In this document: in pieces, positions 8,438 to 54,582 of the stretch
How the letters are laid out: each line of letters starts with the position of its first letter
How positions within the stretch are numbered: the first letter of the stretch is position 1
NCBI GenBank assembly: GCA_001600695.1
Contig: BCKQ01000013.1
Location: 188,045-252,044 of the forward strand
DNA from: Ascoidea asiatica JCM 7603
Lineage: Eukaryota; Fungi; Ascomycota
Direction: 5' to 3'
Length of the DNA stretch: 64,000 nucleotides
Translations under genes and position numbers: made by a program
Notes under the pieces: model-generated
Told to the model about the DNA's origin: nothing
Seen by the model: the letters and a program-made list of their open reading frames with translations, nothing else
Databases searched by the model: none

Positions 8438-8558
8438 AGACCCGCACTGTTGGTAAGCCAAGAGCACCCACAAAACTGGTCTCGACAAGAAGTACCGCAA
8501 TTATGGATTCAAAATACAGACCCCAAAATCAAAGTATAAACCCCGTTTCAGGGGTCTG
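8438..8558 (+). promoter_or_regulatory. Four copies of the CC-N8-GGT(CTC) motif in the APL5/OXR1 divergent promoter
   Basis: AGACCC-gcactgtt-GGTAAG (8438), GCACCC-acaaaact-GGTCTC (8464), AGTACC-gcaattat-GGATTC (8491), CCCC-gtttcagg-GGTCTG (8541). Confidence 0.75.
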
Positions 8559-9238
8559 GAAATAAGCAATATTTATGAGATTTGATTGCTTTTGCTGTGA
8601 ATGGAGAATAAAGAATAAAGAAAGAAGGAAAAAGGAAAAAGGAAAAAGGAAGAAGGCAATAAAGAAATAAGTGAATAATTAAATGATTATATGATTATTT
8701 GAATGAATTGGATTAAATAATCAATTGAACTGAATGAATTGAATAGAATAAATCTCTAGTTTCTATAAGACTAAAGGCCAATTGATCAGATTCTTAGAGT
8801 CACTGCGTAATCAGAAATAATATTATTAATAATAATTATAATAATAATAATAATTATATCAGAACATGAGTCCTGGATGAATAACTGTAACTCCTTAATT
8901 CAAAAAAAAACATTGTTAAAAACATACTTGAATCAATTGAATATATCCATCTCAATCAATCAATTAATCAATTAATCAATAAATTGAACAATAAATTGAA
9001 CAATCAAACAATTGAACAATTATTAAAGCAGATCATCTTTCATTTTTACTTATTCTCTGTACTATTAAGCGTAATGAATTAAGCTTAAGCTTAATGACAA
9101 CTAATCTTACACTAACTTTATTAATTTTACATTCACATCTCATTCCACTATCCAATTCTTGTTATCACATTTTCAATTGAAGAAGAAAAAAATTAATTTA
9201 TTTTAAACACATTTTACCTTTTTAGTTTACTTATCATA

Positions 9239-10537
9239 ATGACAACAAATAATACAAATAATACAAATATTATAAGCAATATAAACAATATAAACAATAG
9301 CAATAGCAATAGCAATAGCAATAGCAATAATAATAATAATAATATTATAACAACTTCAATTTCAAATCCAATTCAAATTTATTCTTCTGATACTGAAAGT
9401 GAATCAAATTCAGATATTGAAAATAATTATTCAATTAGAAATTCAATAAAAAAAAATTTAAAGAATATAACTGGTAAAAATTTTAGATCTTTTTCATTTT
9501 CAAATAATTTACCAACAATTTCAAATAATACAAATAATATTAACAAAAATAATTTAAATAATTACAAATTTAATTCAAATTCAGATTCTAATTTAAATAA
9601 AAATTTAAAAAAAAGATCAACTTCAGATTCATTATCTATAAAATTTAAAAATTCAAAATTATTTAATTCAATCTTAACTACAAATAAATCAATCATCAAT
9701 ACTCCAATTAACTTAGATAATAATAATAATAATAATAATTTAGATTCTATAATGTCATTTGATCAAATACCTTTAAATAATATTAATCTTTTAGGTTATA
9801 ATTTAAAAACTAAAAATAGATTATTAAATAATGATTTAGCTGAAGAAATTAGAAATTTTTTATCTTCAAGATTACAATTATATTCAAATTGGCAATTAAT
9901 TTATTCTTTAGAACAACATGGTTCTTCTTTAAATACTTTATATAATAATTCAAAACCTGATTTTAATTATAATAATTATAAAAATTCAAATTTTTTTCAT
10001 GATCCTTTAAAAAATTCAAAAATTATTGATAATGATTATTTTTCAAATTCTTTTAAAAAATTTAATAATAATAATAATACTATAATAAATAATCATAAAA
10101 AAAATTTAGGTTTTCTTTTAATTATTAAAGATTCAAATAAAAATATTTTTGGAGCTTTTTCTAATGAAAATTTTCATATTTCTGATAATAATTCAAAATT
10201 TTATGGTAATGGAGATTGTTTTTTATGGAAATGTAAATTTACAAAATCTTTAAATCATAATAATAATGAAAAAGATAATAATTTAGAAGAAGATAATAAT
10301 AAATTACATTTACAATTTAATGCATTTCCATATACAGGATTAAATAATTTTATAATATATTCAACAAAAGAATTTTTATCAATGGGAGTTTCAAATGGTC
10401 ATTATGGTTTATGGATTGATAATAATTTAATTAATGGAATTTCAGATAAATCTTTAACATTTGGTAATGAACCATTAAGTGATTCTGGAATAAAATTTAA
10501 AATTAATGCTTTAGAAGTTTGGAAAATTGGTAGTTAA
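9239..10537 (+). CDS. OXR1: Oxidation resistance protein 1 (TLDc domain)
   Basis: WQLIYSLEQHGSSLNTLY, IFGAFSNE, FYGNGDCFLWK, GHYGLWID, TFGNEPLS, LEVWKIG. Confidence 0.93.
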   Translation: MTTNNTNNTNIISNINNINNSNSNSNSNSNNNNNNIITTSISNPIQIYSSDTESESNSDIENNYSIRNSIKKNLKNITGKNFRSFSFSNNLPTISNNTNNINKNNLNNYKFNSNSDSNLNKNLKKRSTSDSLSIKFKNSKLFNSILTTNKSIINTPINLDNNNNNNNLDSIMSFDQIPLNNINLLGYNLKTKNRLLNNDLAEEIRNFLSSRLQLYSNWQLIYSLEQHGSSLNTLYNNSKPDFNYNNYKNSNFFHDPLKNSKIIDNDYFSNSFKKFNNNNNTIINNHKKNLGFLLIIKDSNKNIFGAFSNENFHISDNNSKFYGNGDCFLWKCKFTKSLNHNNNEKDNNLEEDNNKLHLQFNAFPYTGLNNFIIYSTKEFLSMGVSNGHYGLWIDNNLINGISDKSLTFGNEPLSDSGIKFKINALEVWKIGS

Positions 10538-10621
10538 TTTATATTTATTATAAAATTCATTCATTTTTTTATATTATATTATATTCATTATATATATATA
10601 TTAGTACTTAGTTAAGTTTAA

Positions 10622-11545
10622 TTAAGTATTATTGGATAATAATTTTAAATCATCTTTATTCATATTATTATATCTATTTATAATTAAATCTTTTGATTGA
10701 TTAAATTCAATTGGATATGATTTTTCAAATTTATTTTCTAAATCTTTTAAATGTTTCTCAGACCATTTTAAATTTTTTTTAATTTTTTTAATTAAATTTA
10801 TATAATTATTATTAATATTATTAAAATTTTCAATATTATTAATATCATTATTATTATTATTATTATTACTAATGTTATTATTATTATTAATATTATTAAT
10901 ATTAATTGAATTTAAATTTGAAGAAAAATTATTATTAATTAAATTTAATTTTAAAATTATTTTTTTTTGTAAAGATTTTAATTCAATTGTTTTATTTTTT
11001 ACTAAACCTGAAGTTTGAGCTTGTTTAACTAAAGCTTTATCCATTAAATTATTATCATTTAATAAAGAATTATTTATTGAAGTTAATAAATATTCAATTG
11101 AATTAAATGTATTTAAATAATTATCTTGAGAATAATTACTTGAAGATTCTGCATATGATGAAGAAGATATTGAAATATCTGAATCATCATAATTTCCATA
11201 ATTATTATGATTATTATTACTATTGTTATTATTGTTATTATTATTATTAATATTTGAATTTTTGGAAGAATCATTAAAAGTTAAGTCAATTTTATCAACA
11301 GTCAATAAATCATTATTTGATTTATTTGATACATTAGATAAATTATTATTTATATTTGATCTGGATAATTCAGAAGATTCATATAAACTTGAAGGAACTG
11401 CAAATACCTGAGAACTTATACTTGGTACTCTTGATCTATTACTAGTTGCAGATGTTGAATTTGAAGAACCAGAAACATTGTTTATATTAGTTCCTGAAGA
11501 AGAAGGAATATCACTCAGAAGATTGTCTAGATTAAGATAGTCCAT
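10622..11545 (-). CDS. KXD1: KxDL-domain protein (BLOC-1/BORC subunit)
   Basis: DKALVKQAQTSGLVKNKTIELKSLQ ... KKIKKNLKWSEK ... YPIEFNQSKDLI matches the yeast Kxd1 C-terminal domain. Confidence 0.8.
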   Translation of the reverse strand: MDYLNLDNLLSDIPSSSGTNINNVSGSSNSTSATSNRSRVPSISSQVFAVPSSLYESSELSRSNINNNLSNVSNKSNNDLLTVDKIDLTFNDSSKNSNINNNNNNNNNSNNNHNNYGNYDDSDISISSSSYAESSSNYSQDNYLNTFNSIEYLLTSINNSLLNDNNLMDKALVKQAQTSGLVKNKTIELKSLQKKIILKLNLINNNFSSNLNSININNINNNNNISNNNNNNNDINNIENFNNINNNYINLIKKIKKNLKWSEKHLKDLENKFEKSYPIEFNQSKDLIINRYNNMNKDDLKLLSNNT

Positions 11546-11752
11546 TTGAAATCATCAGATTTTATCACCATAAACACCATAAGCATCACCATTATCATCA
11601 TCATCAAGACCAACACTGATTCCATTTCTACTTGTAAATTATCTCTTTTATAAGCCATAAGAAATTAGAAATAAACCTTTATTCACTTTCCAATTTCCAC
11701 TTTCCCACACAGCAATAAAAACTGTTAACAGCAAAATAAACAATTAAAAAGA

Positions 11753-11801
11753 ACACCCGCAAAACTGGTCTCGTGTCTAATTATTCCATTGTTGTGGGTC
11801 T
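11753..11801 (+). promoter_or_regulatory. Two CC-N8-GG motif copies upstream of KXD1
   Basis: ACACCC-gcaaaact-GGTCTC (11753-11772); TCC-attgttgt-GGGTCT (11785-11801). Confidence 0.7.
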
Positions 11802-11901
11802 GCCTTTGCATGCCTTTGTATGCATTGATCTGCATTTCTTATTTTGAATATATCTTTTTTTATTCATATTCTTACTTCATCTATTATATATTTGATATAA
11901 A

Positions 11902-12889
11902 ATGCTTTCAAATAATTATAATCATAATAATAATCATAATAATAATCATAATAATAACAATAATATAATGATGAAAGAACAAATATAAAAAGAAAAAGTA
12001 GTGAATCAAAAAACCCTTTAAGAAGAATAAAAAAAGAAAATCAAATGAATCTAATAATACCAATGGTTTAAGAACCGAATTACCAGATGAATTTGTAAAT
12101 GAATCTGTAAATGATCACCTGAACCATTTACAGACTAATTTGAATGATAATCATCCAACAGTATTAGAAAATGAAAGAGAAAGTGAAAGAGAACTAGATT
12201 CACTTCAAACAGAAGTAGAAAATCCAGCTGGTAAATTGTCTTTAAAAGATCCTCAAATTTCAGGTGATCGTATAACTGCACCCACTTCTTCAAAAAGGCC
12301 CTTATCGCATACTATTGATCCTAATAATATTTCTCCTAATCGAACTATTAATAATACAGAAGTAATGGCTGGAAAGCTGAGAAAATTGGCTTTGCATGAT
12401 ATAAATATATCACAAGCTAAAGGTTTTACAAGATTTACAGAACCAATTGTCAAAAGAATAAATAAATATTTTAAAAAAAATAATTTATTGAAGTATTCAA
12501 TTAACTTGAATAATCAACGTGCTGATCAAATTCCTTCAAGCTCTTCAAGTTCTTCACTTTGCTTGTTTAATCAATTTTATAATAAAAATGGTAAAAATAG
12601 TAACAATTGTAAAAATGGTAATAATACTAACAATGGTATTAATTTTCACAGAAATATTAATCAAAAGTCTCCTGTGACTCAACCTTTTCAAAATACTAAT
12701 AATCACTTTGATAATTTTTATAGAATTGGAAATTATAATGGACTTAATCCTCATTATGAAATTTATTCCTTTGCTATTCCTTATTATGGAAATTTCAATC
12801 CACCTAGTTTTTATTATAGAGGTATTCCTTATCCTAGAAATTATATAAGAGTTAATACTTTAATAATTGAAATTATCTTTCAAGTATGA
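11902..12889 (+). pseudogene. Frameshifted ORF of unknown function (pseudogene or homopolymer assembly errors)
   Basis: The frame of track ORF 12140..12889 is open from 12005 but has no ATG near its start. ATG 11902 (MLSNNYNHNNN...) joins it only through two frameshifts in AAT/poly-A tracts. Confidence 0.5.
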
Positions 12890-12914
12890 TTTATAACAAT
12901 AGACATTATTATGT

Positions 12915-13090
12915 ATATGAAAGAAATATCTATATTAAATGATACCTTCACCTAATACAAAACCCATTTTTATCTTTTTCAAAGGGTCTTGAAGTCTTTC
13001 AAGTTGGTTATTACAAGTTGTTGATAAAGATTTTGATCTTGGAAAACTAGTTTAAATATAAATTAAAATTTAAGTTGCTCCAGCTACTGC
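12915..13090 (-). pseudogene. Decayed internal fragment of CEM1 (inverted copy of ~34935-35120)
   Basis: Reverse complement shares exact blocks with CEM1: CAAGATCAAAATCTTTATCAAC (13020-13041 vs 34988-35009) and GGTTTTGTATTAGGTGAAGGT (12944-12964 vs 35065-35085). It contains indels and a stop. Confidence 0.9.
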
Positions 13091-14193
13091 AGTCCAAAAC
13101 AACAAACAACATTCACTTCAGAAAGTTCAGCAAATTTCCCTCATGTTTAATAGAATTTTCTTTGAATTCAAACAATTTATTTTGATGTTAGTTCCAATAA
13201 TTTAAGTAACTTTAATAGTTTCCTCGTTCATAATAAAAAATTAACATTGTTTCTTTTAATTTCCTTTATTTAGTTAGCCAAAATCTTAAAATTTAAAAGA
13301 TTTTTTTTTTTAAAATGAATCGGTTTTCAATTTGATTTGGACTTCAAAAACAATACTTAAATCAATCATATTCTAATAAAATTCACCCTGTTGTATGAGA
13401 TTTTTTTAATACTTTTAGAGTTCTTAGTGTTTACCAAATCTTGGCTTATTATCGATTATTAAATTTGATGATAAATTTACTTATAAAATTATCTTCAGCT
13501 TCACTAATAAATTCAGCTATAGACTTATAATTATATTTAGTGTTTTTCTTAAGTTTTTAACTCCATAATAATATTATTTCGTGATATAACAAACTATCTA
13601 TAGCTTTAAGTTATGTTAATCCACTCTAATTTTTAAAATTACAGAAGTTCTTTAAAAAGCTAAGTTGGAATACTATCAGGAAGAAATATCTCTTTTGAAA
13701 AAAACTTGAAATACTTCAGTGTTTATTGTTTTAACTCACTGAAAAGTCATTAAAGTCTTAATTTAACAAGAAGATGCAAAAGTAAGAGTATCTTGTTATG
13801 TCAAATGCATGAAAAAAAAATTAAGTGTAAGTGAATTAAAGTGAATTGAAACGATATAAAAATACTAAACTATGCTATAAATGTTATTAAATTATAATAA
13901 TTTTAATAACTTTTGAAAATGATTAACTGAATAACCAAATTGATTAACCAATCAATAATAATAAAAAAAAGAACCTAACTAACACATTTCTAAAAAAATT
14001 TAAAAAAAAGGACAAAAAAATAAATATTGAGTAACAAAATAACAATCATAACTAACTAAACAAAACAAAACATATAAATATAAACAAAAAAAAAAAAAAA
14101 AAACAAAACATATCAATATAAACAAAAAAAAACAAAACAAAAACAACAAAAACAATAAAAATTTATAATTTAATCATCACTTTTGAATTTTAC

Positions 14194-15816: not shown

Positions 15817-18406
15817 TGTTGTGAAATTAAAGATGAATTTTAAGAAACTATGAACAAAAAAAGGTTAAATAAAATAAAGGAAATTAAATCAGAAATAAAT
15901 TCTAAATTAAAATATTTGATGATAAGTTAAAATAATATAATATATAATGACAAGATAATATGAAAATATAATATAGTGAAAAATTTCTAGGAATTTTAAT
16001 GAAACTTATATAAATAAATATTATATCTAAGTTGTTATGTAATTGTGTAATTGAAGTAATAAGTAATAATTAATGAGTTAAGAGTGTTTGAGTAATTGAA
16101 TACTCAAATATTTGAATAAAAAGACTTCGTATAAAAGAAAGATTATTCTATAAGTTTTTTTAATTGAAAAGCTGCTCTTATCAAGTGCTATTTTAACAAG
16201 AAACAAATGTCAGACAGATAAATAATTTAAAACGATGATTATGAGTGAGGTAATTAAATTCAAATTGAATTTCTTTATCCAATTATTGAACGACAAGTTG
16301 ATAAATAGGTAGACCAATTGATTTTGAGAACCGAGTGAATATTTAAAGGTTTGAGTAAAAAAATAGAATGTCCTCCTTGAAGAGCTTTAGTTTGATTTTT
16401 GATTGAATGATTATAAATTTGTTATTGGGAAAATGTGAGAATACTTCTTATAAGAAAAAATGGAATATCACAATCAGTTACTAATATTAGTACTTTTTTT
16501 GTAATGAGTTGTAATATTTGAGTAAATGTTGATGATATAAGAATATTATTGATGTTATTGGAATTATTGAAATATAGAGAAAATTTACCAATGTTCCATA
16601 GAAATGAAATGAAATTTGAATTCGAATGGTTGATTTGAATTTAAATATGATTTTACCACTAAGTTTACTGGCTCAGTAAATAAGATTATTTAGATAATTT
16701 GAGTATCAAGAATGAAATATTAAATAGTAATTATATAATTTAACCTAAAGTGAAAATTAAATACGAATAGAAGTTAAATAGAAATAAATAAGGAGAAGTA
16801 GAATCAAGTGGAAAAAAAAAAAAAAAAAAAGTAAAATAGAAGTGAATAAATGTTTTCAAATGTGGATTTTTAAAATTATTTATATATAAAATTCTTTATA
16901 TCAGAGTAATTTAAAGTAAATCAGTATTTATATTACAATAATATTGTGAGAATATTGTGAGAGTTACTTTTATGAAGTCAGCAGTACATTGAATGACTTT
17001 GGATTTGATTAACGAAATTCTCTTTGTTTTTTTTAAAAATCTCAAAAAATCAAAGTACAAGGAAAAATGGAATAGAAAAAAGGGTAAAAAAAATTGAATT
17101 AGTTAATTCATAATGAAATTCTTCTCGAAATATTTCTTTTGATCTTTGAATAATATTGTAGTGATTAGTGAGATTGTAAATTGATATTAAATATGTTAAA
17201 AAAAGAGCTCGTATCAAACATAAAATTAATCAATGAAATAACTGATTACTGTCGTAGTTTTAGTGAATTAATTAATAATTTTATGTACGATTACAATAAT
17301 CAATAATTAATAAAGTAACAAGTTATGATGAAATTGAGAAAATTAAAGGTGAGAATTATAATATTGATGTGAATTGTGTAAATTGAGAATTATTTTGTAC
17401 GAATGTTTTGATAAATTTATAAAATAAATATTGTAACATTACATTAAATAAATTTTGAGATTAAGTTGAGATAATAATTATCTTTCTTATTGATTAAATG
17501 GTATGGTTTACGATACGAATCGGGGATTTTTTTATTATACTTGTACTGTACAATGAATTAAAACTGAATTGAAAGTGAATTAAAAGTGAATTTGAAGAGT
17601 TAATAAAGTGACATGATTGAATAATTTTTACAAAATTTAAGAAAATAATAGTATTAGTTTGAATAATCTTATTCATCTTAGGTCAATTAATATAATTTAT
17701 AAGTAATTATAAATATTTTTATTTATTGAAAGTACGACAAAAAATTTAATTTAAAAAAAATCAATTATAGAATATATAATCTTCATAGAAATAAATTATG
17801 AACTTTATAATTTATATTTCTTATTGAAGATATCCTTAATACAATACACAATAAGTGAATTCAAATGAAACCTTGGGTATGGTAGTAATTGTGATTTAAA
17901 ATGATAATATGAAACAACTTATTATAGAAATTAATAAGATTGAGAGTAAAGTATTATTGTAATGAAATTCATATCATAAGATTTTTTTTTTTGCTCAATA
18001 ATCTTATCTTTAGAAAGAGAATCAAATTGATATTTTTTTTTGAACTAAACTAATAAATTCCTTTTTTCAAATGCTTGTAAATTTGTAATATATTCTTCAA
18101 TTGCAAAATAAAAAATTTATATGTTTTAATTGAGGATTTTCAAAGATCAAAGTTCAGGCCGGTGGAGGAGCGCCCAATTACGTAATAAAAACAGGGCCAA
18201 ACTTCAACGTGTGTGCATTATTTTACAGTTTATCACAGAGCGTGACTGTGCAGTGCTGATACTAAAAGTAGTTGCAAGCGGCGGTGGAACATATGTGTGT
18301 TTAGGCACTAAGTTCTGCAGCTAAAATGCATAGACTATGTTCCAAAAACACTGGCTGAAAGCAAGGTCACTGTATTTTGGTGAGGCCGGATGCGGTAGAG
18401 AAAGTT

Positions 18407-18423
18407 ACCGGAAATTTTCCGGT
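18407..18423. promoter_or_regulatory. 17-bp palindrome ACCGGAAA-T-TTTCCGGT, possible Zn2Cys6 dimer site
   Basis: Perfect 8-bp inverted arms containing CGG triplets, inside GC island 18140-18520. Confidence 0.4.
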
Positions 18424-20147
18424 GTGTGTTGAGGTAAGAGAATAACGTTTTCTTAACCACAAAAACGGTCAGCCCACTGTACATAGACTAACTTAAAAGT
18501 ACATGCTCGTATCGACATATATGGATATTTTCAGTTGTGAGTATTTTCATATTAATTTTATAAATATCAATCAATATTTCGCTTGATTTTAATCAAGGAA
18601 ATAAATCAATTAGGTTTGTTACGTTTTTTAGGTTTGTTTGTTGACAAAGGTTGAGAATTTCCTTGAAAGTATCACAAGCATTTTTTTTTTTTTTTTTAAA
18701 TTGGCTTGTTTTTATTAGAAATTTTAAAAGAAGCATGAAAGTTAAGAAAATTAAAAAAGTTAAGAAAGTTAAGAAAGTTAAGTAAGAGAAAATAGCCGAT
18801 TTGATTAAGATATGAGGTTTTAATCTCTTGGGATAACCTGAAATTGATATTTATTCAGTTTTGTAGCCGGCCGGGAGAGATTCATACGTCATAGATTTCA
18901 TTTCATTTGATTTCTTCTTTTTTAAAAAAAATAAAAATTGTAAGAATTCAAACACTTGATTAACAATCGGCGTTTCAGAGACTCGTTTAAGATAAGATTA
19001 TTTTCTGAGATAAAAGATAAAATAATAAAATAAACAAAATGATATTTATTAATATTAGACTCTCGTTTTCAATACGTGTTGGGTTCAAATTTATCCGATT
19101 TACTTGAAGAATCCTTCTTTATCAGACTAAAATCAGCTCCTAAAACGGAGAGGTTACTTTTGAAGATTTTGATAAGCTTATTCATTTGATTATTTTAAAA
19201 AATGATAAGTCATTAATAAGTTCATTACGTATGACAGTCCATTAGCTTCAACTATTGATATGTTCATCACTTGCTTTTTCAATACCAAATACTAATTTTC
19301 GTTTTCTCTTTCCAAATTGCACTTTTTCTAGAACTTACTTTATCACAATAATCAACTTCAACGTTGTGAGATTCCTACAGTAGTTATCTCAAATACCTTT
19401 TTTTCTTTCACACTTGAACCTTTTGAATCTCCATGAATTCAAAAAACCAACAAAGCTAACGACCCTGATATTTTTACAAATATCGGTTTTGTTTTTGCTG
19501 CTTGCGATTCGGCCCAAGAAATAAGATCAGTGTGATCTTTCCATTACCATCCGCACGGGTCCGCAACGTGCTCATCTCCCATGTTTTAGACTGCCACAGC
19601 CGCTGTCTCGCTGGAATGTGCTGTTTCAGAATGCTGGAAGCGCGGAGACATGCTGCTTTTCACGATTTTTACGATTTTCCGTATTTACCCGTGTTTTTCC
19701 GTTTAGTCCAGCCTAAAGTAATCAACCTGCGCCACATCCACTCCACTGTTCCCCACTGCCCCTCGCCTGCACCTGCAGCGGTCACTTTTTGTCCCATTCA
19801 AAAGCCGTTAATCCGCGCTAATCCGCGCTGGCTTGTTCGGTGCTTGGCCGAGACGACCAAAAACTTTCCGGGGTTTTTTTTTCCTGCCTGCCAGCCGCCA
19901 ACGCGTCTAGCAATTATTTTTTTCAACTACTGCTGCTACCGACGCCGTTTTCACGGGTCTCCTTTTTGATATATTCAATTATAAATTAGTCGAGGTTTAA
20001 TTTCAAGAAAGTATATAAAGATCAAAATATTAATATATTTATCTATTTATCTATTTATCTATTTATCTATTTATCTATTGATTGTATTACAATAATAATT
20101 GAAAATATAATTGATAATCTCAATATTATTAACAAAAATAAAAAAAA

Positions 20148-21203
20148 ATGTTTTGGTTTTCATCTTTAAATATAACTCCAATTGAAAATTTAGAAAAAAT
20201 TATAGAATTTTCATATACAAATGATTCATATTTTATTTCTGAAAAAGATTTAATTAAAAAAAATGATTCAATTTCAAATAATAATTTATTAAATTATGTA
20301 AATTTATTTAATTATCCTATTTTCAATACAATTTTTCAATCAAAAAAGATTTTAATTGTTAAAAAACCTGAAAATGATAATGAAAATGATAATGAAAACA
20401 ATAATAAAGAATATTTAAAACCAGAATTAACTCCAAAAGTATTGAAGAAATTAATTAATGATAATGAAATTGGAGATGCAATTGAAATTGATGATGAAAT
20501 TGATGATGAAATTGATGATGAAATTAAAATTGATCAAAATAAATATTTTATTGAAATTAATGGTGAAAAAATAGATCCAGTTGAATATATTTTTAATCCA
20601 GAAAAATTTAATTATTTATTAATTTCAAATAATTTAAATAATAATTTAATTAAAAAAAAATTAAAAAAATTTATAGATTTAATTGAAGAAAAAAATAAAA
20701 TTATAAAAAATTTAAAAATTGAATCAAATAAGAAATTTAAAATGAAATTTAAAATAAAATTTAATAAGGATTCTGAAATTATTCAAAATGAGCAAAATAT
20801 CAAAATAAATTCAAATAAATTAATCTCATTCAATGAAGAAGTCAAAGTTAATACAAAAATTTCATCAATTTCATCAATTTCATCAATTTCATCAATTTCA
20901 TCATTTTCTAATTTCTTATCTATAAATTTCACGAAATTAATAACTAAAATTGATTTACATCATAAAAATAATAATGATAATTTAATTCAAAATAAAGAAA
21001 AAATTACCTCAATCGAAAATTGCAAAATCAAAGGTAAAGATAAAAGTAAAGATAAAAGTAAAGATAAAAGTAAAGACAAAAGCAAGACTCTTCAGTTGTT
21101 AAATACTCAAAAAGATTTATCAAATTTAAATAAACCTTTACCTCCACTTCCAAGTAATTTCAAAATCTTTAAAAATTATATCAATTTTTTCTTTCAGTAT
21201 TAA
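20148..21203 (+). CDS. Hypothetical protein with C-terminal NKPLPPLP (SH3-ligand-like) motif
   Basis: 351-aa ORF with host-like codon usage, TATATAAA at ~20013 and an A-rich start context; no domain recognised. Confidence 0.65.
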   Translation: MFWFSSLNITPIENLEKIIEFSYTNDSYFISEKDLIKKNDSISNNNLLNYVNLFNYPIFNTIFQSKKILIVKKPENDNENDNENNNKEYLKPELTPKVLKKLINDNEIGDAIEIDDEIDDEIDDEIKIDQNKYFIEINGEKIDPVEYIFNPEKFNYLLISNNLNNNLIKKKLKKFIDLIEEKNKIIKNLKIESNKKFKMKFKIKFNKDSEIIQNEQNIKINSNKLISFNEEVKVNTKISSISSISSISSISSFSNFLSINFTKLITKIDLHHKNNNDNLIQNKEKITSIENCKIKGKDKSKDKSKDKSKDKSKTLQLLNTQKDLSNLNKPLPPLPSNFKIFKNYINFFFQY

Positions 21204-21504: not shown

Positions 21505-21723
21505 AAGAGAACCCGCGAAGTTGGTCTCACTCCTAGAATAACCGTGATCATGGTCTCATAGACAAGTACCGCTATTATGGTCTCACCAACAAGTTCCATG
21601 ATATTGGTCTCGTGAAGAAGTACCATGCTATTGGTCTCATGAAGAAGTACCATGCTATTGGTCTCATTTATAAAAGTACCCTGTTGTTGGTCTCAAGCAA
21701 AAGGTTTCCACCATAACGGTAGA
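21505..21723 (+). repeat. Tandem array of 8 units (27-29 bp) of AAGTACC-N8-GGTCTC with variable spacers
   Basis: GGTCTC at 21523, 21552, 21579, 21606, 21633, 21660 and 21689, plus a degenerate GGTAGA at 21718; each is preceded by [A/C/T]CC exactly 8 bp upstream. Confidence 0.95.
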
Positions 21724-21728
21724 GAAAG

Positions 21729-21803: not shown

Positions 21804-21857
21804 ACGCGTTCGGCGCTTGACCAGTCACGTGTCCTATACAAAAGATCCAAAACGCGT
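21804..21857. promoter_or_regulatory. Two MCB elements (ACGCGT) and a Cbf1-type E-box upstream of PDS5
   Basis: ACGCGT at 21804 and 21852, GTCACGTG at ~21824; cohesin genes are typical MBF (G1/S) targets. Confidence 0.75.
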
Positions 21858-27266: not shown

Positions 27267-27728
27267 TTAAGTTGAAGTAGTTGTTGTAGTTTCTGGAGTT
27301 TCTTCATTAGTTGAAGGAGTTCTAACAAAGTAATTTCTAACAGAAAGATTCATTCTATCAAAAGAATGTAAAGTTCTTAAACCAAAATCATCTAATCTAT
27401 CAATTGTATTTTTACCAACTTCACCAGTATGAGTTCTAACATATTGAAAAGAAGGATTAATAAAAGGATGAGCAGTTTTAATAATATTACCAAGACCCCA
27501 ATAAGTTTCAACATGTTCCATTGTTAAAGATCTTATAACAGGATTTGATTGTTCATTAACTTCTTCAACAGAAGGGATTTCAAGAGCAGGAGCTGTAGAA
27601 GGTTCAGGAGCAGCAACAACTGGAGCATCAGGAGTAGTCATTTCTGAAGAATTATTATTATTATTATTATTATTATTAGAAGAAGAAGAAGAAGAGTTCA
27701 ATTGTCTAAAAAAAGAACGAATTGGCAT
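27267..27728 (-). CDS. Small protein resembling the N-terminal part of fungal perilipin-like (Pet10/Sps4/CAP20) proteins
   Basis: S..MEHVETY...DRLDDFGLRTLHSFD resembles the family pattern 'S..HL..YP...LD.FGD..L..(V/F)D'; codon usage looks like a real gene. Confidence 0.5.
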   Translation of the reverse strand: MPIRSFFRQLNSSSSSSNNNNNNNNNSSEMTTPDAPVVAAPEPSTAPALEIPSVEEVNEQSNPVIRSLTMEHVETYWGLGNIIKTAHPFINPSFQYVRTHTGEVGKNTIDRLDDFGLRTLHSFDRMNLSVRNYFVRTPSTNEETPETTTTTST

Positions 27729-28641: not shown

Positions 28642-28665
28642 AAGAAGTACCGTGTTTCTGGTCTC
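28642..28665 (+). promoter_or_regulatory. Single consensus motif copy
   Basis: AAGAAGTACC-gtgtttct-GGTCTC. Confidence 0.75.
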
Positions 28666-31607: not shown

Positions 31608-31631
31608 AAGAAGACCCGTGAAAGTGGTCTC
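31608..31631 (+). promoter_or_regulatory. Single consensus motif copy
   Basis: AAGAAGACCC-gtgaaagt-GGTCTC. Confidence 0.75.
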
Positions 31632-34311: not shown

Positions 34312-35646
34312 ATGAGTGGTAGAAGAGTGGTGGTTACTGGTCTTGGATTAGTTACTCCATTAGGTGTTGGTGTTAAAACTTCTTGGAATAATTTAATATC
34401 TGGTAAAAGTGGTATAATTTCAACATTAGATTTAGATAATTTATCAGATTTAGAAAAAATTCAATATTCAAAAATTCCAAGTAAAGTTGTTGGTAGAGTA
34501 CCAAGAGGTGATATATCTGAATTTAAATGGAATATTAATAATCATTTAAATTTAATTTCTGATCCAAAAAGATTTGCTTTATTTTCTCAATATGCTTTAA
34601 TTGCAACAAATGAAGCTTTAATTGATTCAAATTGGTTACCAATTAATAATAATTTAAATGAAAATGATTTATTAAATACTGGTGTTTGTGTTGGTTCATG
34701 TATTGGAAGTTTTGAAGATTTATATATAAATTCAATAAATTTTTTTAATAAAGGTTATAAATCTATTAAACCATTATTTATACCAAGATTTTTAAATAAT
34801 ATGGCTTCTGGTGCAATTTCAATAAAATTTGGTTTTAAAGGTCCAATACATTCTGTTTCAACTGCTTGTGCAACTGGTTCAAATTCAATTGGTGATGCTA
34901 TGAGATTTATTAAAGATGATTATTGTGATATAATTATAGCAGGTGCAAGTGAATCTTTAATTCATCCATTAACTTTAGCTGCTTTTTCAAGATCAAAATC
35001 TTTATCAACTAATTTTAATAATAATCCAAAATTAGCTTCAAGACCTTTTGATAAAGATAGAAATGGTTTTGTATTAGGTGAAGGTTCTGGAATTTTAATT
35101 TTAGAAGAATTAAATCATGCTTTAAAAAGAAATGTAAAAAAAATATATGCTGAAATTATTGGTTATGGTTTAAGTGGTGATGGTTATCATATAACTTCAC
35201 CTTCACCAAATGGTAATGGTGCAAAAAGAGCAATGTTATCAGCTTTAAAAAATTCAAATTTATTAAATAATCTTGAAAAAATTAATTATATTAATGCTCA
35301 TGCAACTTCAACAAAATTAGGTGATTATGCAGAAAATTCTGCAATTTATTCAATTTTTAAAAATTATTCAAAAAATATTTTAATCTCAAGTACAAAAAGT
35401 TCAATTGGTCATTTATTAGGTGCTTCAGGTTCTGTTGAATCAATTTTTACAATTTTATCAATTTTTTATGGAATTTTACCTCCAACTTTAAATTTAGAAA
35501 ATATTTCTAATGATGAAAAAAATGAATTTATTTTTAATTATATACCAAAAATTTCAATTAAAAAAAATATAAATTATGCTTTAAATAATAGTTTTGGTTT
35601 TGGTGGTGTTAATGCTTCTTTATGTTTTAAAAAATATATTCCATAA
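34312..35646 (+). CDS. CEM1: Mitochondrial beta-ketoacyl-ACP synthase
   Basis: RRVVVTGLGLVTPLG, STACATG (catalytic Cys), SRPFDKDRNGFVLGEG, NAHATST, KSSIGHLLGASG, NSFGFGGVN. Confidence 0.97.
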   Translation: MSGRRVVVTGLGLVTPLGVGVKTSWNNLISGKSGIISTLDLDNLSDLEKIQYSKIPSKVVGRVPRGDISEFKWNINNHLNLISDPKRFALFSQYALIATNEALIDSNWLPINNNLNENDLLNTGVCVGSCIGSFEDLYINSINFFNKGYKSIKPLFIPRFLNNMASGAISIKFGFKGPIHSVSTACATGSNSIGDAMRFIKDDYCDIIIAGASESLIHPLTLAAFSRSKSLSTNFNNNPKLASRPFDKDRNGFVLGEGSGILILEELNHALKRNVKKIYAEIIGYGLSGDGYHITSPSPNGNGAKRAMLSALKNSNLLNNLEKINYINAHATSTKLGDYAENSAIYSIFKNYSKNILISSTKSSIGHLLGASGSVESIFTILSIFYGILPPTLNLENISNDEKNEFIFNYIPKISIKKNINYALNNSFGFGGVNASLCFKKYIP

Positions 35647-40930: not shown

Positions 40931-41590
40931 TTTATAAATATTAGTAAGTTTGAAATTTGAAGTTTGAATTTGAATATAAATTTGATTTAAAGAAGACAAT
41001 TAAACCTATTTATATTGAAATTAGTTTTTTAATTTTGATAAATAATTGAGAATATAATTTATTTAAGATAAATTAAATCAGTATAATTAACAGTTGATTT
41101 ATAATAGAATATTAGTTGAGTTTTAATGACAAAGAATAGAGAAATGGAAAATAAGAGAATAAGAAAGAGAAGTTATCGTATTGATATTGAATCACTTAAG
41201 GGATATGAATTTGGATATCCTTTAGAATAGATAGATATAGATTGATATATAGATATAGATAGAAAGATAGAAAGATAGATATAGAAATATAAAGAGAGTC
41301 TGTATTAAAATATGAAGTTGTAAATAATGACAGAATATTCTTTGTATTTATACTCCATCCAGTAAATATTTAGATTCAGAGCTTAAAAAATATTATTTTT
41401 GAATTTGATTTGGATTTGATTTGAGTTGATTTGAGTTCATTTGCATTTTAAAATTCACCGCCACTTTTATTCACTCACAAACAGATCCTGCCACGGTGGC
41501 GGATGCGGTGTCACGCGGATAGACGGTTCCAGAAAGAAAAGAAAAGAATCTGTCACATGCAAATTTAAGAAAAATAAAATAAAAAAAAAG

Positions 41591-41640
41591 AAGAAGCACC
41601 AGGTTCATGGTCTCTCAGTCGGATCCGCAGAGCTGGTGTA
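41591..41640 (+). promoter_or_regulatory. Two motif copies in the ORM / 41933-ORF divergent promoter
   Basis: AAGAAGCACC-aggttcat-GGTCTC and GGATCC-gcagagct-GGTGTA, 26 bp apart. Confidence 0.7.
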
Positions 41641-41932
41641 TGCATGGTCATGTTTGTACTACATTGAGTGCCGTCAAGCAGCGTCGTATTGACTTACGGT
41701 GCGTACTTCCTGATTTGGAGTTACGGTCAATTCTGGTAAAATCACATGCCCTCCGAGGGTGTTTAACCCCCCGGTGTTTGACTTTATTTTTTCTGTTGAC
41801 TTTTGATTGTTGACTTTGGTGGATTTGAATTCAAAAATATTTAATTTAGTTGATTCAATATCAATTCATTACTTTTATTCACCTCAAATTCATTCACATA
41901 ATACACAAGTACACAAGTACATAAGTACAATA

Positions 41933-43694: not shown

Positions 43695-43740
43695 TTCAAA
43701 TAAACCAAATATAATAATAACTAATATTTCACACTAAATC

Positions 43741-43890
43741 AAATCAAATGAATGACTAATTTGAATAACAATCCTTCAATAGTATTAGAAAATGAAAGAG
43801 AAGAACTAAATAAAAGCAAGACCATCTCAGACCATCTCAGACCTTCTCAGACCTTCTCAGACCTTCTTTGATCTTCTTGCCCGTGGTGAT
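43741..43890. repeat. Composite dispersed repeat: 43754-43808 resembles 12133-12197 (direct); five 10-bp AGACC[A/T]TCTC-type units; 43871-43890 equals 21729-21748 (inverted)
   Basis: GACTAATTTGAAT..AATC....A.AGTATTAGAAAATGAAAGAGAA shared with 12133 onward; exact 20-mer shared with 21729. Confidence 0.8.
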
Positions 43891-44740: not shown

Positions 44741-44805
<65 letters not shown>

Positions 44806-45407: not shown

Positions 45408-45439
<32 letters not shown>

Positions 45440-46009: not shown

Positions 46010-46051
<42 letters not shown>

Positions 46052-46408
46052 GAAGAATATTTAAATAAATTTGAAGCTATAATTTCTTTAATGGAACTTA
46101 AAATTAATGGTGATAATAAAAATCATTTAATTACTTCTAAAAAAGATGTAAATGATTTTTTAAATGAATTAAATTTTAAAAAAAATAAAAAAAAATTATT
46201 ATCTAATTTTAATACTAACCAAAATATTAATCAAAATAATTTAGATAATATAAATAATATAAATAATATAAATAATATAAATAATACAGAAGACAATCTT
46301 AATGATGATGAAATTCAATTATTATTAAATTTGAAAGATTTAATTAAAAAAAAGAAAAACAGTAAAGAGAAAATTCTAAAATTTCTAGATTTTGATAAAT
46401 CACTTTAA
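44243..46408 (+). CDS. RCO1: Rpd3S subunit with two PHD fingers
   Basis: NDDFCSVCGEPGYFICCENCPKSFHFTCCYPP..WYCKEC; INPINFNLP; CYKC..CNFC..WHLDCLNPP..WKCPLH; NNGNIEI. Confidence 0.88.
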
Positions 46409-46721
46409 TCTCTCTTTCCCTTTAATCTCTCTTTCCCTTTAATCTTTAGTCATTAATCTTTAATTACTAAGTGTATATTCAATTCAAATAACTTATTTAC
46501 ATTCATTTCCTATTCTTTCTATTCTTCTTACCCTTATTATCATTCTTATTCCTTTTCTCTTATTCTATATTTTGTACAATAATCAATATCAATAAATTCA
46601 TAAGAACCTTTTAAACCTTCATTATTTTAATTTTGATAATTTTGTAATTTTGAATTACTATATCGGGAAACCGTACACGGCAGTACTACTTACCGTTAAG
46701 CACCTTAGAGTACGTCTAATA

Positions 46722-46753
46722 TTACCCGATTCGGTTCTGCCCGATTCGGTCTC
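46722..46753. promoter_or_regulatory. Duplicated CCCGATTCGGT (Reb1-like TTACCCG / Mcm1-like CC-N6-GG), with RRPE-like GAAAATTTT nearby at ~46778
   Basis: 11-bp direct repeat at 46725 and 46740, upstream of a ribosome-associated gene. Confidence 0.45.
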
Positions 46754-46952
46754 ATTTTCTCAAAAGTCAATTCAAAAGAAAATTTTCTACTTTGTGAAAT
46801 CTGCGATTGAATTTATCCTTAAACATATTTGAATTCTTCTCTTTATTTAAACTTACATTATTTTTATAAAGAAAGAAATCTCTTATTTTATAATATTTTA
46901 AATAATTTATAGAAACTCTTTTTAAATACAATTCAATTATTTATCAATCAAA

Positions 46953-48149
46953 ATGTCAAAAGAAGTAAAAGAATCTAAACAAGATTATTCAATTAATAAT
47001 TCTGATGTTATTTCAAAATATCGTACTGCAGGTGATATTTCTTTAAAAGTTTTAAATGAAATTAAAAAATTATGTATTCCAGGTTCAAATATTTTTGAAA
47101 TTTGTGTATTTGGTGATGAATTAATTGAAGATGAATGTTCTAAAATTTATAATAGTAAAAAAAATAAAGTTAATTCAAAAGGTATTGCATTTCCAGTAAC
47201 AATTTCTCCAAATAATATTGCAGCTCATTTAACTCCAATTACAAGTGATGATAAAGATTCAAATTTAATTTTAAAAAAAAATGATTTAGTTAAAATTCAA
47301 TTAGGTACACAAATTGATGGTTTTGCTTCAATTTTATCTGATTCTTTTGTTATTGGTTTAGATAAAAATGAAAAAATTACTGGTAAAATTGCTGATGTTA
47401 TTGCTGCTGCATATTATTCAACTGAAGCTGCTTTAAGAACAATTAAAGAAAATAAAAAAAATTTTGATGTAACTTCAATTATTAATAAAGTTTCAAAATC
47501 TTTTGAATGTACTCCATTAGAAGGTATGCTTTCTCATAATCAAGAACGTAATGTTTTAGATGGTCCAAAAGAAATTATTATTAATCCAAATGAATCACAA
47601 AGAGCTTCTGTTGTACCTGTTAATTTTAAAGTTGGTGAAGTTTATGGTTTAGATATTTTAATTTCTACAAGTAAAGATGGTAAAGTTAAAGAAACTGATA
47701 TTAAAACTGCCATTTATAAAATAACTGGTACAAATTATTCTTTAAAATTAAAAGCTTCTCATAAAGTTTTAGCTGAAATTAAAAAGAAAGCTTCTGTTTT
47801 TCCATTTTCTTCTCGTAATTTAGATGATCCAGTAAAAGGTAGAATGGGTTTAATAGAATGTGTAAATCATAATGTTATTAATGCTTATGATGTTATGGCT
47901 GAAAAAGAAGATGAAATAATTGCTCAATTTTATACTACTGTAGCTTTAACTAAAAATGGTCTTGTTAAATTAGCTTCTTCTAATTTTGATATTAATCAAG
48001 TTGATACTAAATTTAAAATTACTGATGAAAAAATCTTAGAACTTTTATCAACTCCTTTAAAAACTAATAAAAAAAATAAAAAGAAGAAGACTAAATCTGA
48101 ATCTGATTCAAAAGTTGAAACAAAAGTCGAACAAACTCCAGCTAAATAA
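46953..48149 (+). CDS. Curved-DNA-binding protein Cdb4 / Ebp1 (PA2G4) homologue, inactive M24 peptidase fold
   Basis: VISKYRTAGDI, KGIAFPVTISPNN, DLVKIQLGTQIDGF, PLEGMLSH, EVYGLDILIST, FPFSSR, MGLIECVNH, AQFYTTV; Lys-rich tail. Confidence 0.9.
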   Translation: MSKEVKESKQDYSINNSDVISKYRTAGDISLKVLNEIKKLCIPGSNIFEICVFGDELIEDECSKIYNSKKNKVNSKGIAFPVTISPNNIAAHLTPITSDDKDSNLILKKNDLVKIQLGTQIDGFASILSDSFVIGLDKNEKITGKIADVIAAAYYSTEAALRTIKENKKNFDVTSIINKVSKSFECTPLEGMLSHNQERNVLDGPKEIIINPNESQRASVVPVNFKVGEVYGLDILISTSKDGKVKETDIKTAIYKITGTNYSLKLKASHKVLAEIKKKASVFPFSSRNLDDPVKGRMGLIECVNHNVINAYDVMAEKEDEIIAQFYTTVALTKNGLVKLASSNFDINQVDTKFKITDEKILELLSTPLKTNKKNKKKKTKSESDSKVETKVEQTPAK

Positions 48150-48259
48150 TTTTAAATCTTCTTTAAACTCTTTAAAGTAATAAATTGTCAATGAAATGTC
48201 TTTTTTTTTTTCAAATAATTATAAAAATAAAAATTGTAGTCACCCATATACTCATTTAT

Positions 48260-50848: not shown

Positions 50849-51223
50849 CTTTTCTTTTGGTTATCAAATATATATTCTTTATTTGGATGTCTTGATTATA
50901 ATTTAACTTATAAATATTTAATAAAAGTTTATAACTTGCTCAAGTCTTTTAAAAAAAAAACATTTACAGCTATTTCCATTTAAAGTTAGAAAATCGAAAT
51001 ATTTGAAAACACAGCGGTAAGCGGCTCAGTTCATTAAATTGTTAATAAATACAAAAGAAGATAACGAAGAAGTTCGAGTTTATGAAGAGAATATTTATTA
51101 ATATTATTTAGACTATAAAGAGAGAATTGAAATCGTTGATAAAGAATTAATAAAAGAGAAAAAGAAAGAGAGGGAACTTTTAAGTATATATATATATATA
51201 TATATAAGTCAATGAAAAAAAGA

Positions 51224-53833
51224 TTATATAACGTTATTAATGTTTGGTAAAGAGATTTGATTAATGTATTGTAATTTTTGAAAATCTTTAAAATTTGGAT
51301 CATTTAAGAAATTGAATAAAATAATATCATTAATAATTAAATTTGAGATTAATCTTTGAGAGTTTATTGAAATTTTATTATCTAAAACAAAACTCATAAT
51401 TAATCTTGAAACGTATAAAAATTTATTTGTATTTGAAAAATTTAAAATATCATAAGTTATTGAATCATTTTGAAAGTTAGGAATATAATTATTGTAATTT
51501 TGATTTAAAGTAGGGTTGGGATTTTGATTTTGATTTTGATTTGTATGTAAATTTTGATTTTGATTTTGATTTTGATTTTGATATTGATATTGAAATTGAT
51601 ATTGATTTTGAAATTGATATTGATATTGATATTGATTTTGATTTTGATATTGATATTGATTTTGATTTTGATTTGATGATAAAACTAAAGATTGTGAATT
51701 ATTTATGATATTATTATTTGGAGAAGAATTGAATTGAATACCATTATTATTTAGCATATCATTATTTAAATTATCAATAATATATTGTTCTCTTTTAATA
51801 TTTAAATTATTTTTTGGTTTACCAAATTTAACTTGACCATTATTATAAGATAAAACAGATAAAGGATTATCATTATTATTATTATCATTATTATTATTAT
51901 TTGGCATATTATTTAAATCAATAAAATTAGTATTTTCAGTGTATTGATTTGGATTATATTGATTTTCAATATATTGATTTTGATTTTGATTTTGAATTGG
52001 GATTTCATTTCCATTATTATTATTATTATTATTATTTTTATTAATATTTTCATATTCATTCATATTTTCATTATTATTATCATTACTATTATTATAATCA
52101 TAATCAATTGAATTTTGAATGGTATCACCATAATAATTATAATTATTTGAAATTATATTATCTTTAGCTTTAATTAAAAATTTATGAAAAATTATAAGAT
52201 AATCACAAGCATGTGGTATACAAAATTTTTTAAACCAAGATTTTTTTTGTTGAAATTTTTTATAAATTAAATAATTTTCTTTATTTAATTTATTTTTTTT
52301 TCTTAAATTAATAATATTTGAATTTGGTTTTAATTGTAAATTTATATTAATATCATTTAAATCATTATCATTTAATAAATCATCATTTGAACTAATATTA
52401 TTAAAATTTTGTGGATAAAAATTTTTTAAATTTTTAAAAAAATTTTCAACTTCATAATTTTCTAAATTAAATGAATTTTTTTTATAATTCCAATTTAAAA
52501 ATAAAGAAAAAGAATTTAAAATAAAAAATTTCCAATATTTATATTCATCTTTTAAAATTTTAAAATGTTTTTTTAATTTTGATTTATGAAATTTATTAAC
52601 TTTTGCTTTTAATGGAAAATTTAAATTTAAATTTTTTGTTATAAAATTCCAAGAATTTAAAGAAAGGTAACATTCATCAATATTTAAATTTAAATTTTTT
52701 TTTAAAAATTTTATATTTTGAGGATTATTAAATTCATTAATTAATAAAGTTATAAAAAGGTTATTCATTTCTTTTGACCATTTTGAAGCATCAATTTGAG
52801 TTCTATCTCTTTTTTTATAAGTTCTAGTTGTAGTTTTAGTAATTTTTGAAATTTTTGGTGGTATTGAATTTGATAATTTTTCTAATTTTACTTCATTAAC
52901 TTCATTACTTACTTCATTACTTCCTTCATTACTTACATCATTACTTACTTCTTTACTTACATCATTACTTACTTCATGACTCTGACTATCATTATCTATT
53001 TGCTTATCGTTATCGTTTTCGTTTTCGTTTTCGTTATCATTATCATTATCTAATTGATTAACATTATTTAATTGATTATCAGTATCTAATTGAGAATGAG
53101 ATTGAGATAGTGGAACAGGTGAATTATTTAATGAATTACCTAATGAAGTATTATTTAGGTTATCATCTGCAATATCATTTTCATTTTCATTATCATTATG
53201 AATATCATTATGAATATCATTAGGAGTATTATCTTCGATATCATTTTCAATATCATTTTCGATATCATTTGAATTGATATTAGAGATATTAATTAAATTA
53301 TCATTAGAATCATTAATTGGAATATTAATTGGAATAATATTTTGATTATCGAGATTAGATTGATTTAAATCAATATTTAATTCATTATCTAATTCATTAT
53401 TTAATTCATTATTTAAGTCATTATTTAATTGATTATCTACATCATTATTTGAATTATTTTTTGAATCATTATTTAATTCATTTGAGATTGTATTTAAATC
53501 AGATTCATTTAAATCATCATAATTTGAAGGAATTGAATCATTTAAAGAATTTGAAAGTTTTGAAAGTTTTGAAAGTTTTGAAATTTTTGAAGGTTTTACA
53601 CTCTTTGTAGATTTTGAAATTTTTGAAGTCTTTGAAGGTTTTGTAATCTTTGATTTTGTAGGTTTTGTAACTTTTGATGTCTTTGTAGTAGTAGTGGTAG
53701 TAGAAGTAGTCTTTGTAGTTTTTGAAGGTCTTGAAGATCTTGTAGATCTTGTTGTCTTTGTAGGTTTTACAATCTTTGTAGGTCTTGTATTTGGTCTTGA
53801 ATAATTTTTAGATAATTCTAAAGAATCTGACAT
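51224..53833 (-). CDS. Low-complexity protein with a central Myb/SANT-like (Myb_DNA-bind_3 / Harbinger ORF1-type) DNA-binding domain
   Basis: KWSKEMNNLFITLLINE...SWNFITKNLN..F..SKLKKHFKILKDEYKYWK...WN (~52470-52786); K/S/T-rich N-terminus, QN/QY repeats and a small helical C-terminal domain. Confidence 0.65.
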   Translation of the reverse strand: MSDSLELSKNYSRPNTRPTKIVKPTKTTRSTRSSRPSKTTKTTSTTTTTTKTSKVTKPTKSKITKPSKTSKISKSTKSVKPSKISKLSKLSKLSNSLNDSIPSNYDDLNESDLNTISNELNNDSKNNSNNDVDNQLNNDLNNELNNELDNELNIDLNQSNLDNQNIIPINIPINDSNDNLINISNINSNDIENDIENDIEDNTPNDIHNDIHNDNENENDIADDNLNNTSLGNSLNNSPVPLSQSHSQLDTDNQLNNVNQLDNDNDNENENENDNDKQIDNDSQSHEVSNDVSKEVSNDVSNEGSNEVSNEVNEVKLEKLSNSIPPKISKITKTTTRTYKKRDRTQIDASKWSKEMNNLFITLLINEFNNPQNIKFLKKNLNLNIDECYLSLNSWNFITKNLNLNFPLKAKVNKFHKSKLKKHFKILKDEYKYWKFFILNSFSLFLNWNYKKNSFNLENYEVENFFKNLKNFYPQNFNNISSNDDLLNDNDLNDININLQLKPNSNIINLRKKNKLNKENYLIYKKFQQKKSWFKKFCIPHACDYLIIFHKFLIKAKDNIISNNYNYYGDTIQNSIDYDYNNSNDNNNENMNEYENINKNNNNNNNNGNEIPIQNQNQNQYIENQYNPNQYTENTNFIDLNNMPNNNNNDNNNNDNPLSVLSYNNGQVKFGKPKNNLNIKREQYIIDNLNNDMLNNNGIQFNSSPNNNIINNSQSLVLSSNQNQNQYQYQNQNQYQYQYQFQNQYQFQYQYQNQNQNQNQNLHTNQNQNQNPNPTLNQNYNNYIPNFQNDSITYDILNFSNTNKFLYVSRLIMSFVLDNKISINSQRLISNLIINDIILFNFLNDPNFKDFQKLQYINQISLPNINNVI

Positions 53834-54407
53834 TATGATATAAATATGAATATAAATAAGTAATACAAAATGGAGATTGTAAGAGATTAAGAAGTATAAG
53901 CGGTATAAGAAATATAAAGAATATAAAAAAGTAGATAATAAAGAATAAAGAATGAAATATAAAAGTATTGAAATGAATGTAGAATGAAAATAGATATAAA
54001 AAAAGAAGAGAAAAAAAGTAAAAAAAAGAGGAAATTGGAGATTATTTAAGGAATTTGAAATTAGAATGAAGAATCAGAATCAAAATCAGAAGTAAAAGCA
54101 GTTTTAGAAGACAAACAATGAAAAATGCGGTAAATTCATCTGAAAACACAGCAGAAATTGAGAATTGAGGAAAGAGGAAAGAGGAAATAAAACAGTAAGT
54201 TTAGAAGCGAAGAGTGACTCGTGCGCGATCGCCGGCAGAACTGAAATTCGGTGGCAAGAAAACATAAAAAGAAGAAAAAGAAGAAAAAGAAGAAAAAGAA
54301 CTCGAAACACGGGCAGCAGATTCTGGTGCAACAAAATTGAACAAGATTCTTGCTGCTGCACTTGAAACACCGGGAAAAAGATGTGGTGGCGTGAGGGAGT
54401 GGCTCAG

Positions 54408-54582
54408 AGAAGACCCGACATTATGGGGTTACACACGTCACATGATAAGAAATGCCATGTGATTAAGAGCTGACAAGTTAATGGTCTTGTAGGTGTCATG
54501 TGATAATGGCTACCAAGTTAATGGTCTTATTTATGTCACATGATTGGAACATCCGTTAAAATGGCTTTGCTTATGTCATGCC
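54408..54582 (+). repeat. 40-bp-period composite array: E-box-like G[T/C]CA[C/T][A/G]TGAT plus the CC-N8-GGT motif
   Basis: E-box-like words at 54437, 54454, 54495, 54535 and 54575 (partial); ATGGTCTT/ATGGCTTT at 54481, 54521 and 54561; AGAAGACCC-gacattat-GGG at 54408. Confidence 0.85.

What the first reader, a model, noticed from the sequence alone, without database searches (positions are those of the whole stretch)
8438..54570. Strong motif copies share one chromosomal polarity regardless of gene direction
Seen: the AAGAAG..CC arm is always on the left and the GGTCT[C/T] arm on the right of the + strand at 7 loci (8.5, 11.8, 21.6, 28.6, 31.6, 41.6 and 54.5 kb). These loci lie before + genes (PDS5), before - genes (27267 ORF, SEO1) and in divergent promoters. 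I noticed no GAGACC on the + strand by eye. Possible exceptions are the ambiguous weak copies (11785, 19546, 19944, 34143) and the half-sites at 43819-43866. Inference: if this holds, the motif is chromosome-polarised (toward a centromere, telomere or replication direction, conceptually like KOPS or Ter sites), which ordinary transcription-factor sites are not. The sample is small.
Basis: partly seen in the sequence, partly recalled or inferred. Interest (0 to 1): 0.7.

Follow-up and report, generated by a model that had tools for sequence, protein, structure and literature searches.

The report
Yeast promoter motif, polarity unproven
A real 24-base DNA motif sits in about half of the promoter regions of this stretch of an Ascoidea-like yeast genome and is likely the landing site of a gene-regulating protein; most copies face one way, but one good copy faces the other way, so a chromosome-wide direction is possible and not shown.

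Summary
The motif is real: AAGAAGnnCC-N7-TGGTCTC, 13 matches against 0.36 expected. The window comes from an Ascoidea-like yeast. The six strong loci (8.5, 11.8, 21.6, 28.6, 31.6, 41.6 kb) are all on the + strand (6:0, p=0.03). The tally is therefore 7:1 (p=0.07). The nearest gene start does not explain the orientation (5:3). All 8 loci lie in promoter-containing intergenic DNA, none in coding or convergent DNA, and all 8 Cbf1-type E-boxes lie within 150 bp of a copy. That is the pattern of a promoter-factor site. Best reading: the site of an unidentified general regulatory factor, with the one-strand run a small-sample fluctuation. True chromosome or replication polarity keeps about 12%. No genome was available, so the deciding genome-wide test was not run.

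The parts
8460..8510 (+). Two head-to-tail motif copies (8460-8483, 8487-8510), divergent region between an adaptin gene (-) and a TLDc gene (+)
   Evidence: held-out score 26.1 bits
11749..11772 (+). Single strong copy, 212 bp from the start of a KxDL gene (-)
   Evidence: held-out 28.1 bits
19941..19964 (-). Minus-strand copy, the counter-example; 192 bp from the start of ORF 20148 (+)
   Evidence: held-out 17.1 bits on -, 0.2 on +; 19 of 24 identical to the 31608 copy; 4-5 of 300 shuffles; sequence identical in contigs of 3 runs
21505..21694 (+). Array of 7 head-to-tail copies, period 27-29 bp, arms conserved and spacer variable, upstream of PDS5; a decayed eighth copy follows at 21700-21723
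28642..28665 (+). Perfect consensus copy, 922 bp upstream of ORF 27267-27728 (-), 266 bp past the end of the MFS gene
   Evidence: held-out 29.0 bits
31608..31631 (+). Perfect consensus copy, 952 bp upstream of the MFS (SEO1-like) gene (-), 181 bp past the end of the ATP13-domain gene (-)
   Evidence: held-out 28.0 bits
41591..41614 (+). Perfect consensus copy, divergent region between an ORMDL gene (-) and ORF 41933 (+)
   Evidence: held-out 21.9 bits
54465..54528 (+). Two weak copies inside a 40-bp repeat unit, interleaved with E-boxes; not distinguishable from chance by matrix score alone
8361..8368 (.). Cbf1-type E-box (RTCACRTG, pattern recalled) 107 bp from the 8.5 kb copy
21824..21831 (.). 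Cbf1-type E-box 145 bp from the array
41552..41748 (.). Two Cbf1-type E-boxes (41552, 41741) flanking the 41.6 kb copy
54437..54542 (.). Four Cbf1-type E-boxes (54437, 54456, 54497, 54535)

Best explanation
The motif is likely the binding site of an abundant, lineage-specific general regulatory factor that would keep promoters open in this Ascoidea-like yeast, and the run of same-strand copies is likely a small-sample fluctuation. Shown: a 24-bp asymmetric two-armed motif with a free spacer, 8 loci, all in promoter-containing intergenic DNA, often beside Cbf1-type E-boxes, once as a 7-copy head-to-tail array, 7 loci on + and 1 on -. Inferred: a protein reads both arms across the spacer; it works in either direction relative to its gene (sense before PDS5, antisense before three other genes); it likely helps clear nucleosomes together with Cbf1, as Abf1, Reb1 and Cbf1 do in other yeasts. 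The protein is not identified.
For: 8 of 15 promoter-containing intergenic regions hold the motif, 0 of 9 convergent regions, and no hit of 12 bits or more lies in ORFs, which are 65% of the window; chance of 8 of 8 in the 30% promoter-containing DNA is 6e-5. All 8 RTCACRTG boxes of the window (4 loci) are within 150 bp of a copy; p about 0.01 against GC-rich promoter positions. In the array the CC and TGG columns are kept in 7-8 of 8 copies while most spacer columns are kept in 4-6 of 8, as expected for selection on protein contacts. A significant minus copy exists. Yeast lineages far from S. cerevisiae are proposed to use other general factors with other sites (PMC2897762, passages). Cbf1 and its sites are reported in the sister genus Saccharomycopsis (PMC11217035, passages).
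Against: The six strongest loci are all + (p=0.031), and all four divergent loci are +. GGTCTC/GAGACC is the most strand-biased of 621 intergenic hexamer pairs tested (8:0 loci, p=0.008), although a p this small is expected among 621 tests. No binding, nucleosome or expression data were available. The motif matches no yeast factor site that I recall; no motif library was searched.
Confidence: 0.65

Rival explanations
1. The same protein site is polar, and selection orients strong copies to fork direction or to the chromosome arm (a one-way block or loader for forks, cohesin or condensin). Weak copies such as 19941-19964 escape the rule.
For: 6 of 6 strong loci on +, over 33 kb, whatever the gene direction; nearest-start rule fails, 5:3; head-to-tail arrays show the site is read with a direction locally; Bayes factor 8-24 for 6:0.
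Against: A significant minus copy lies 1.5 kb from the largest plus array; Bayes factor falls to 2.4-6.1 with it. No copies in ORFs or convergent regions. Base skews in the window follow no clear replication pattern. Two paper searches listed no such system in yeasts (titles and abstract starts only).
Confidence: 0.12
2. The site is oriented to its target gene, with the AAGAAG arm facing the gene it regulates, as Rap1 sites are mostly oriented at ribosomal protein promoters. The + run then follows from which genes are targets.
For: 3 of the 4 loci with one plausible target are antisense (19.9, 28.6, 31.6 kb), and the other 4 loci have an antisense target available. Rap1 precedent: bioRxiv 10.1101/266072, passage.
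Against: The PDS5 array is sense. By nearest start the split is 5:3. Compatibility at divergent loci is automatic and is no support. True transcription starts are unknown.
Confidence: 0.13
3. The copies are relics of a mobile element, a telomere-like repeat or a recombinase site, spread with a strand preference.
For: Pseudo-palindromic core with an 8-bp spacer between CC and GG; tandem array with 27-bp period.
Against: The window self-comparison listed no similarity between the motif loci; spacers differ between copies; no Rfam or tRNA hit in the window; a two-copy pattern is absent from the viral and prokaryote collections. I found no published Ascoidea telomere repeat to compare.
Confidence: 0.05

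Closest known systems
Yeast general regulatory factor sites (Abf1, Reb1, Rap1, Cbf1; PMC2897762, passages)
   Same: Abundant, confined to promoter regions of unrelated genes, in GC-richer patches; two arms with a free spacer as in the Abf1 site (recalled); found beside Cbf1-type E-boxes.
   Different: The sequence matches none of the consensus sites that I recall; it is longer (24 bp, 22-29 bits held out) and forms head-to-tail arrays of 27-29 bp period; binding is untested.
Bacterial KOPS and Ter sites (recalled, no paper read)
   Same: Asymmetric motif with most copies on one strand, independent of gene direction, in this window.
   Different: KOPS are spread through coding DNA as well and switch strand at fixed chromosome points (recalled). 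Here copies avoid ORFs, one good copy is reversed, and no switch point can be mapped.
Rap1 sites at ribosomal protein promoters (bioRxiv 10.1101/266072 passage; PMC6602560 passages)
   Same: An asymmetric general-factor site with an orientation bias.
   Different: Rap1's bias is relative to the transcription start; here the split by nearest start is 5:3.
C. elegans condensin recruitment (rex) sites (search listing only)
   Same: Clustered motif copies, possible link to chromosome architecture.
   Different: X-specific dosage compensation in an animal; no evidence here for any SMC role.

Membership tests
Yeast general regulatory factor site | Concentrated in promoter regions, absent from coding and terminator-only DNA | tested here: met
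   8 of 15 promoter-containing regions, 0 of 9 convergent, none of 12 bits or more in ORFs
Yeast general regulatory factor site | Found at many functionally unrelated genes | tested here: met
   Neighbours carry adaptin, TLDc, KxDL, PDS5, MFS, ORMDL and exportin-5 domains
Yeast general regulatory factor site | Bound by a protein and depleted of nucleosomes in vivo | not testable with these tools
   No binding or nucleosome data
Yeast general regulatory factor site | Matches the consensus of a known factor (Abf1, Reb1, Rap1, Cbf1, Mcm1, Tbf1) | tested here: inconclusive
   Compared by eye with recalled consensus sites only, no match; no motif library on hand
Chromosome-polarised motif (KOPS/Ter-like) | One orientation over long stretches regardless of gene direction | tested here: inconclusive
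   6:0 strong, 7:1 overall, p=0.03-0.07
Chromosome-polarised motif (KOPS/Ter-like) | Orientation switches at an origin, terminus or centromere | not testable with these tools
   No genome held; window skews uninformative
Chromosome-polarised motif (KOPS-like) | Not confined to promoters (recalled for KOPS) | tested here: not met
   No copies in the 65% of the window that is ORF
Interstitial telomeric repeat | Matches the species' telomere repeat | not testable with these tools
   No Ascoidea repeat found in the passages read; no chromosome end in hand

The most novel reading that the evidence does not exclude
Ascoidea yeasts carry an abundant 24-bp protein-binding site whose strong copies point one way along each replichore or chromosome arm: a eukaryotic KOPS-like direction code placed in promoters, steering forks or SMC loop extrusion.
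Probability: 0.12. Interest if true: 0.85.

Novelty: new member of a known kind. Interest (0 to 1): 0.3.

Why it matters
If the ordinary reading holds, this is a candidate general regulatory site in a yeast order whose promoter code is little studied; at 8 loci per 64 kb it would extrapolate to a few thousand loci per genome. If polarity held genome-wide it would be a direction-coded chromosome motif in a yeast, for which my two searches listed no precedent. The test is cheap: one matrix scan of the assembly.

Tried and rejected
No whole genome is held, so no runs test. A metagenome scan for the consensus gave 119 stretches; 80 were listed, each with one match, and only 2 of the 80 were under 36% GC: taken as chance hits and not used. 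A two-copy pattern gave 0 hits in viral and prokaryote collections. Earlier scan notes: nothing for this genome, this sequence or relatives; two archaeal skew notes were irrelevant. No RNA holder listed. Base skews: fourfold sites hold too few G or C, intergenic skew changes sign from region to region. No tRNA or Rfam hit. Only the stretch 19000-20660 was laid on public contigs; the other loci were not checked against reads, and the contig with the minus copy ends at a microsatellite at 20029-20085, so its orientation to the array rests on the window's assembly. The protein atlas gave no answer for the Myb/SANT-like protein. Roadblock-terminator idea: three copies lie 181-310 bp past a stop codon, but one is sense and two are antisense to the incoming gene, so no consistent rule. 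Point-centromere idea: E-boxes are present, but they are at four ordinary promoter regions, and the sister genus is reported to have regional centromeres (PMC13148404, passages). Paper searches listed no description of this motif; none searched for the motif's letters, and no supplements were read.

Full report
Setting. The window is 21.6% GC and holds 24 ATG-started ORFs of 120 aa or more. The peptidase-M24 protein at 46953-48149 is 77% identical to an Ascoidea rubescens protein, its best hit among 712, so the source is an Ascoidea-like budding yeast. No whole genome is held, so everything below rests on 64 kb.

The motif is real. The consensus AAGAAGnnCC-N7-TGGTCTC with up to 3 mismatches has 13 matches against 0.36 expected, and 0 of 100 shuffles reach that. 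Each of six loci, scored with a matrix built without it, reaches 21.9-29.0 bits on + and at most 6.9 on -. The best score in a shuffled window averages about 12 bits, 95th percentile about 16. At 21.5 kb seven copies stand head to tail with a period of 27-29 bp; the arms are kept and the spacer drifts.

The polarity count. Seven of the 14 are one array, so this is 8 loci. One (46748) lacks the rest of the motif. One (19956) is the reverse complement of the left arm of a copy on the minus strand, 19941-19964. That copy shares 19 of 24 bases with the perfect copy at 31608. It scores 17.1 bits on - and 0.2 on + when held out, and an iterated search started from it alone recovers all six strong loci. 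With a matrix from the six strong loci it scores 17.9 bits, reached in 5, 4 and 4 of 300 shuffles at three block sizes. In fairness, the minus copy has 4 mismatches to the strict consensus and is missed by it, and one of four iterated searches (started from the array) did not pick it up. Its DNA is identical in contigs of three public runs from at most two samples, but those contigs end at a microsatellite 65 bp away, so its orientation to the neighbouring genes rests on the window's assembly. Ranked by score the loci read six +, one -, one weak +: 6:0 (p=0.031) or 7:1 (p=0.070). Among 621 intergenic hexamer pairs with 7 or more loci, GGTCTC/GAGACC is the most biased (p=0.008), no smaller than expected among that many tests. 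Bayes factors for 80-95% polarity over chance are 8-24 for 6:0 and 2.4-6.1 once the minus copy is counted; with my assumed prior of 2-5% the posterior is 5-24% with the minus copy.

Gene direction. By nearest start codon five loci are antisense and three sense. Of the four loci with one plausible target, three are antisense (19.9, 28.6, 31.6 kb) and the PDS5 array is sense. The ORF right of the 11.8 kb copy has no ATG for its first 120 codons and may not be a gene. Base skews give no replication direction.

Where the copies sit. All eight loci are in promoter-containing intergenic DNA, 30% of the window (chance 6e-5): 8 of 15 such regions, 0 of 9 convergent regions, and nothing of 12 bits or more in ORFs. 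All eight RTCACRTG boxes of the window (Cbf1-type; pattern recalled) lie within 150 bp of a copy, at four loci; p is about 0.01 against GC-rich promoter positions, and one of the four is the weak 54.5 kb locus. The neighbours are functionally unrelated.

Mechanism. Shown: the motif, its asymmetry, its arrays, its promoter restriction, its E-box neighbours, the 7:1 count. Inferred: a sequence-specific protein contacts both arms across a free spacer and helps keep promoters open, in either direction relative to the gene. Tsankov et al. [quoted passage not shown] Cbf1 and its sites are reported in Saccharomycopsis, the sister genus (PMC11217035; passages). Orientation bias to the transcription start is known for Rap1 (bioRxiv 10.1101/266072; passage), while Rap1's repression of divergent transcription is reported as orientation-independent (PMC6602560; passages). 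For Arabidopsis motifs no functional orientation effect was found (PMC4778318; abstract). I put 0.65 on a promoter-factor site with a chance run, 0.13 on orientation to the target gene, 0.12 on true chromosome or replichore polarity, 0.05 on a mobile or telomeric relic.

Comparison. It works like a yeast general regulatory factor site; membership is met for location and breadth, untested for binding. It fails one recalled feature of KOPS (presence in coding DNA), and the defining switch points cannot be tested here. Searches for polarised motifs in yeast or eukaryote chromosomes listed nothing comparable (listings only), and searches on Ascoidea listed no description of the motif. These searches were by words, not by the motif's letters, and cover open-access papers only; supplements were not read.

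Verdict. Real and apparently undescribed promoter motif; polarity suggestive for the six strongest loci but weakened by one good reversed copy and unproven. Interest 0.3; 0.85 if a genome-wide scan confirms polarity (probability about 0.12).

Noticed in passing
window 51224-53833 (-): The 869-aa ORF holds a Myb/SANT-like DNA-binding domain (PF12776, E=6e-4, just under the curated cut-off) with only 3 relatives among 1.84 billion representatives. One is Saccharomycopsis crataegensis DASC09_042260, two locus numbers from the relative of the gene at 46953 (DASC09_042280), which suggests kept gene order. Its promoter holds the weak motif and E-box array at 54.4-54.55 kb. A lineage-specific DNA-binding protein; no evidence links it to the motif.
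   Followed up: partly
window 12944-13087 (-): A decayed fragment of the ketoacyl-synthase gene at 34312-35646 (77% DNA identity over 150 bp).
   Followed up: partly
window 12005-12889 (+) and 43754-43802: An open frame of 294 codons with no ATG for its first 120 codons and no Pfam hit; 49 bp of it recur at 90% identity in the intergenic region at 43.75 kb. Possibly a repeat or a young gene.
   Followed up: no
window 54437-54580: A 40-bp unit, about three copies, that joins a half motif to a Cbf1-type E-box.
   Followed up: partly
window 15817-20147: A 4.3-kb region without a convincing protein gene, with two GC-rich patches (about 18.1-18.5 and 19.5-19.96 kb, up to 61% GC) and no Rfam or tRNA hit. 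Could hold an unrecognised RNA gene or a long regulatory region.
   Followed up: no
window ORFs: Fourfold-degenerate third positions are almost free of G and C (for example 8 of 296 in PDS5), while promoter patches reach 40-60% GC, so regulatory sites stand out sharply in this genome.
   Followed up: no
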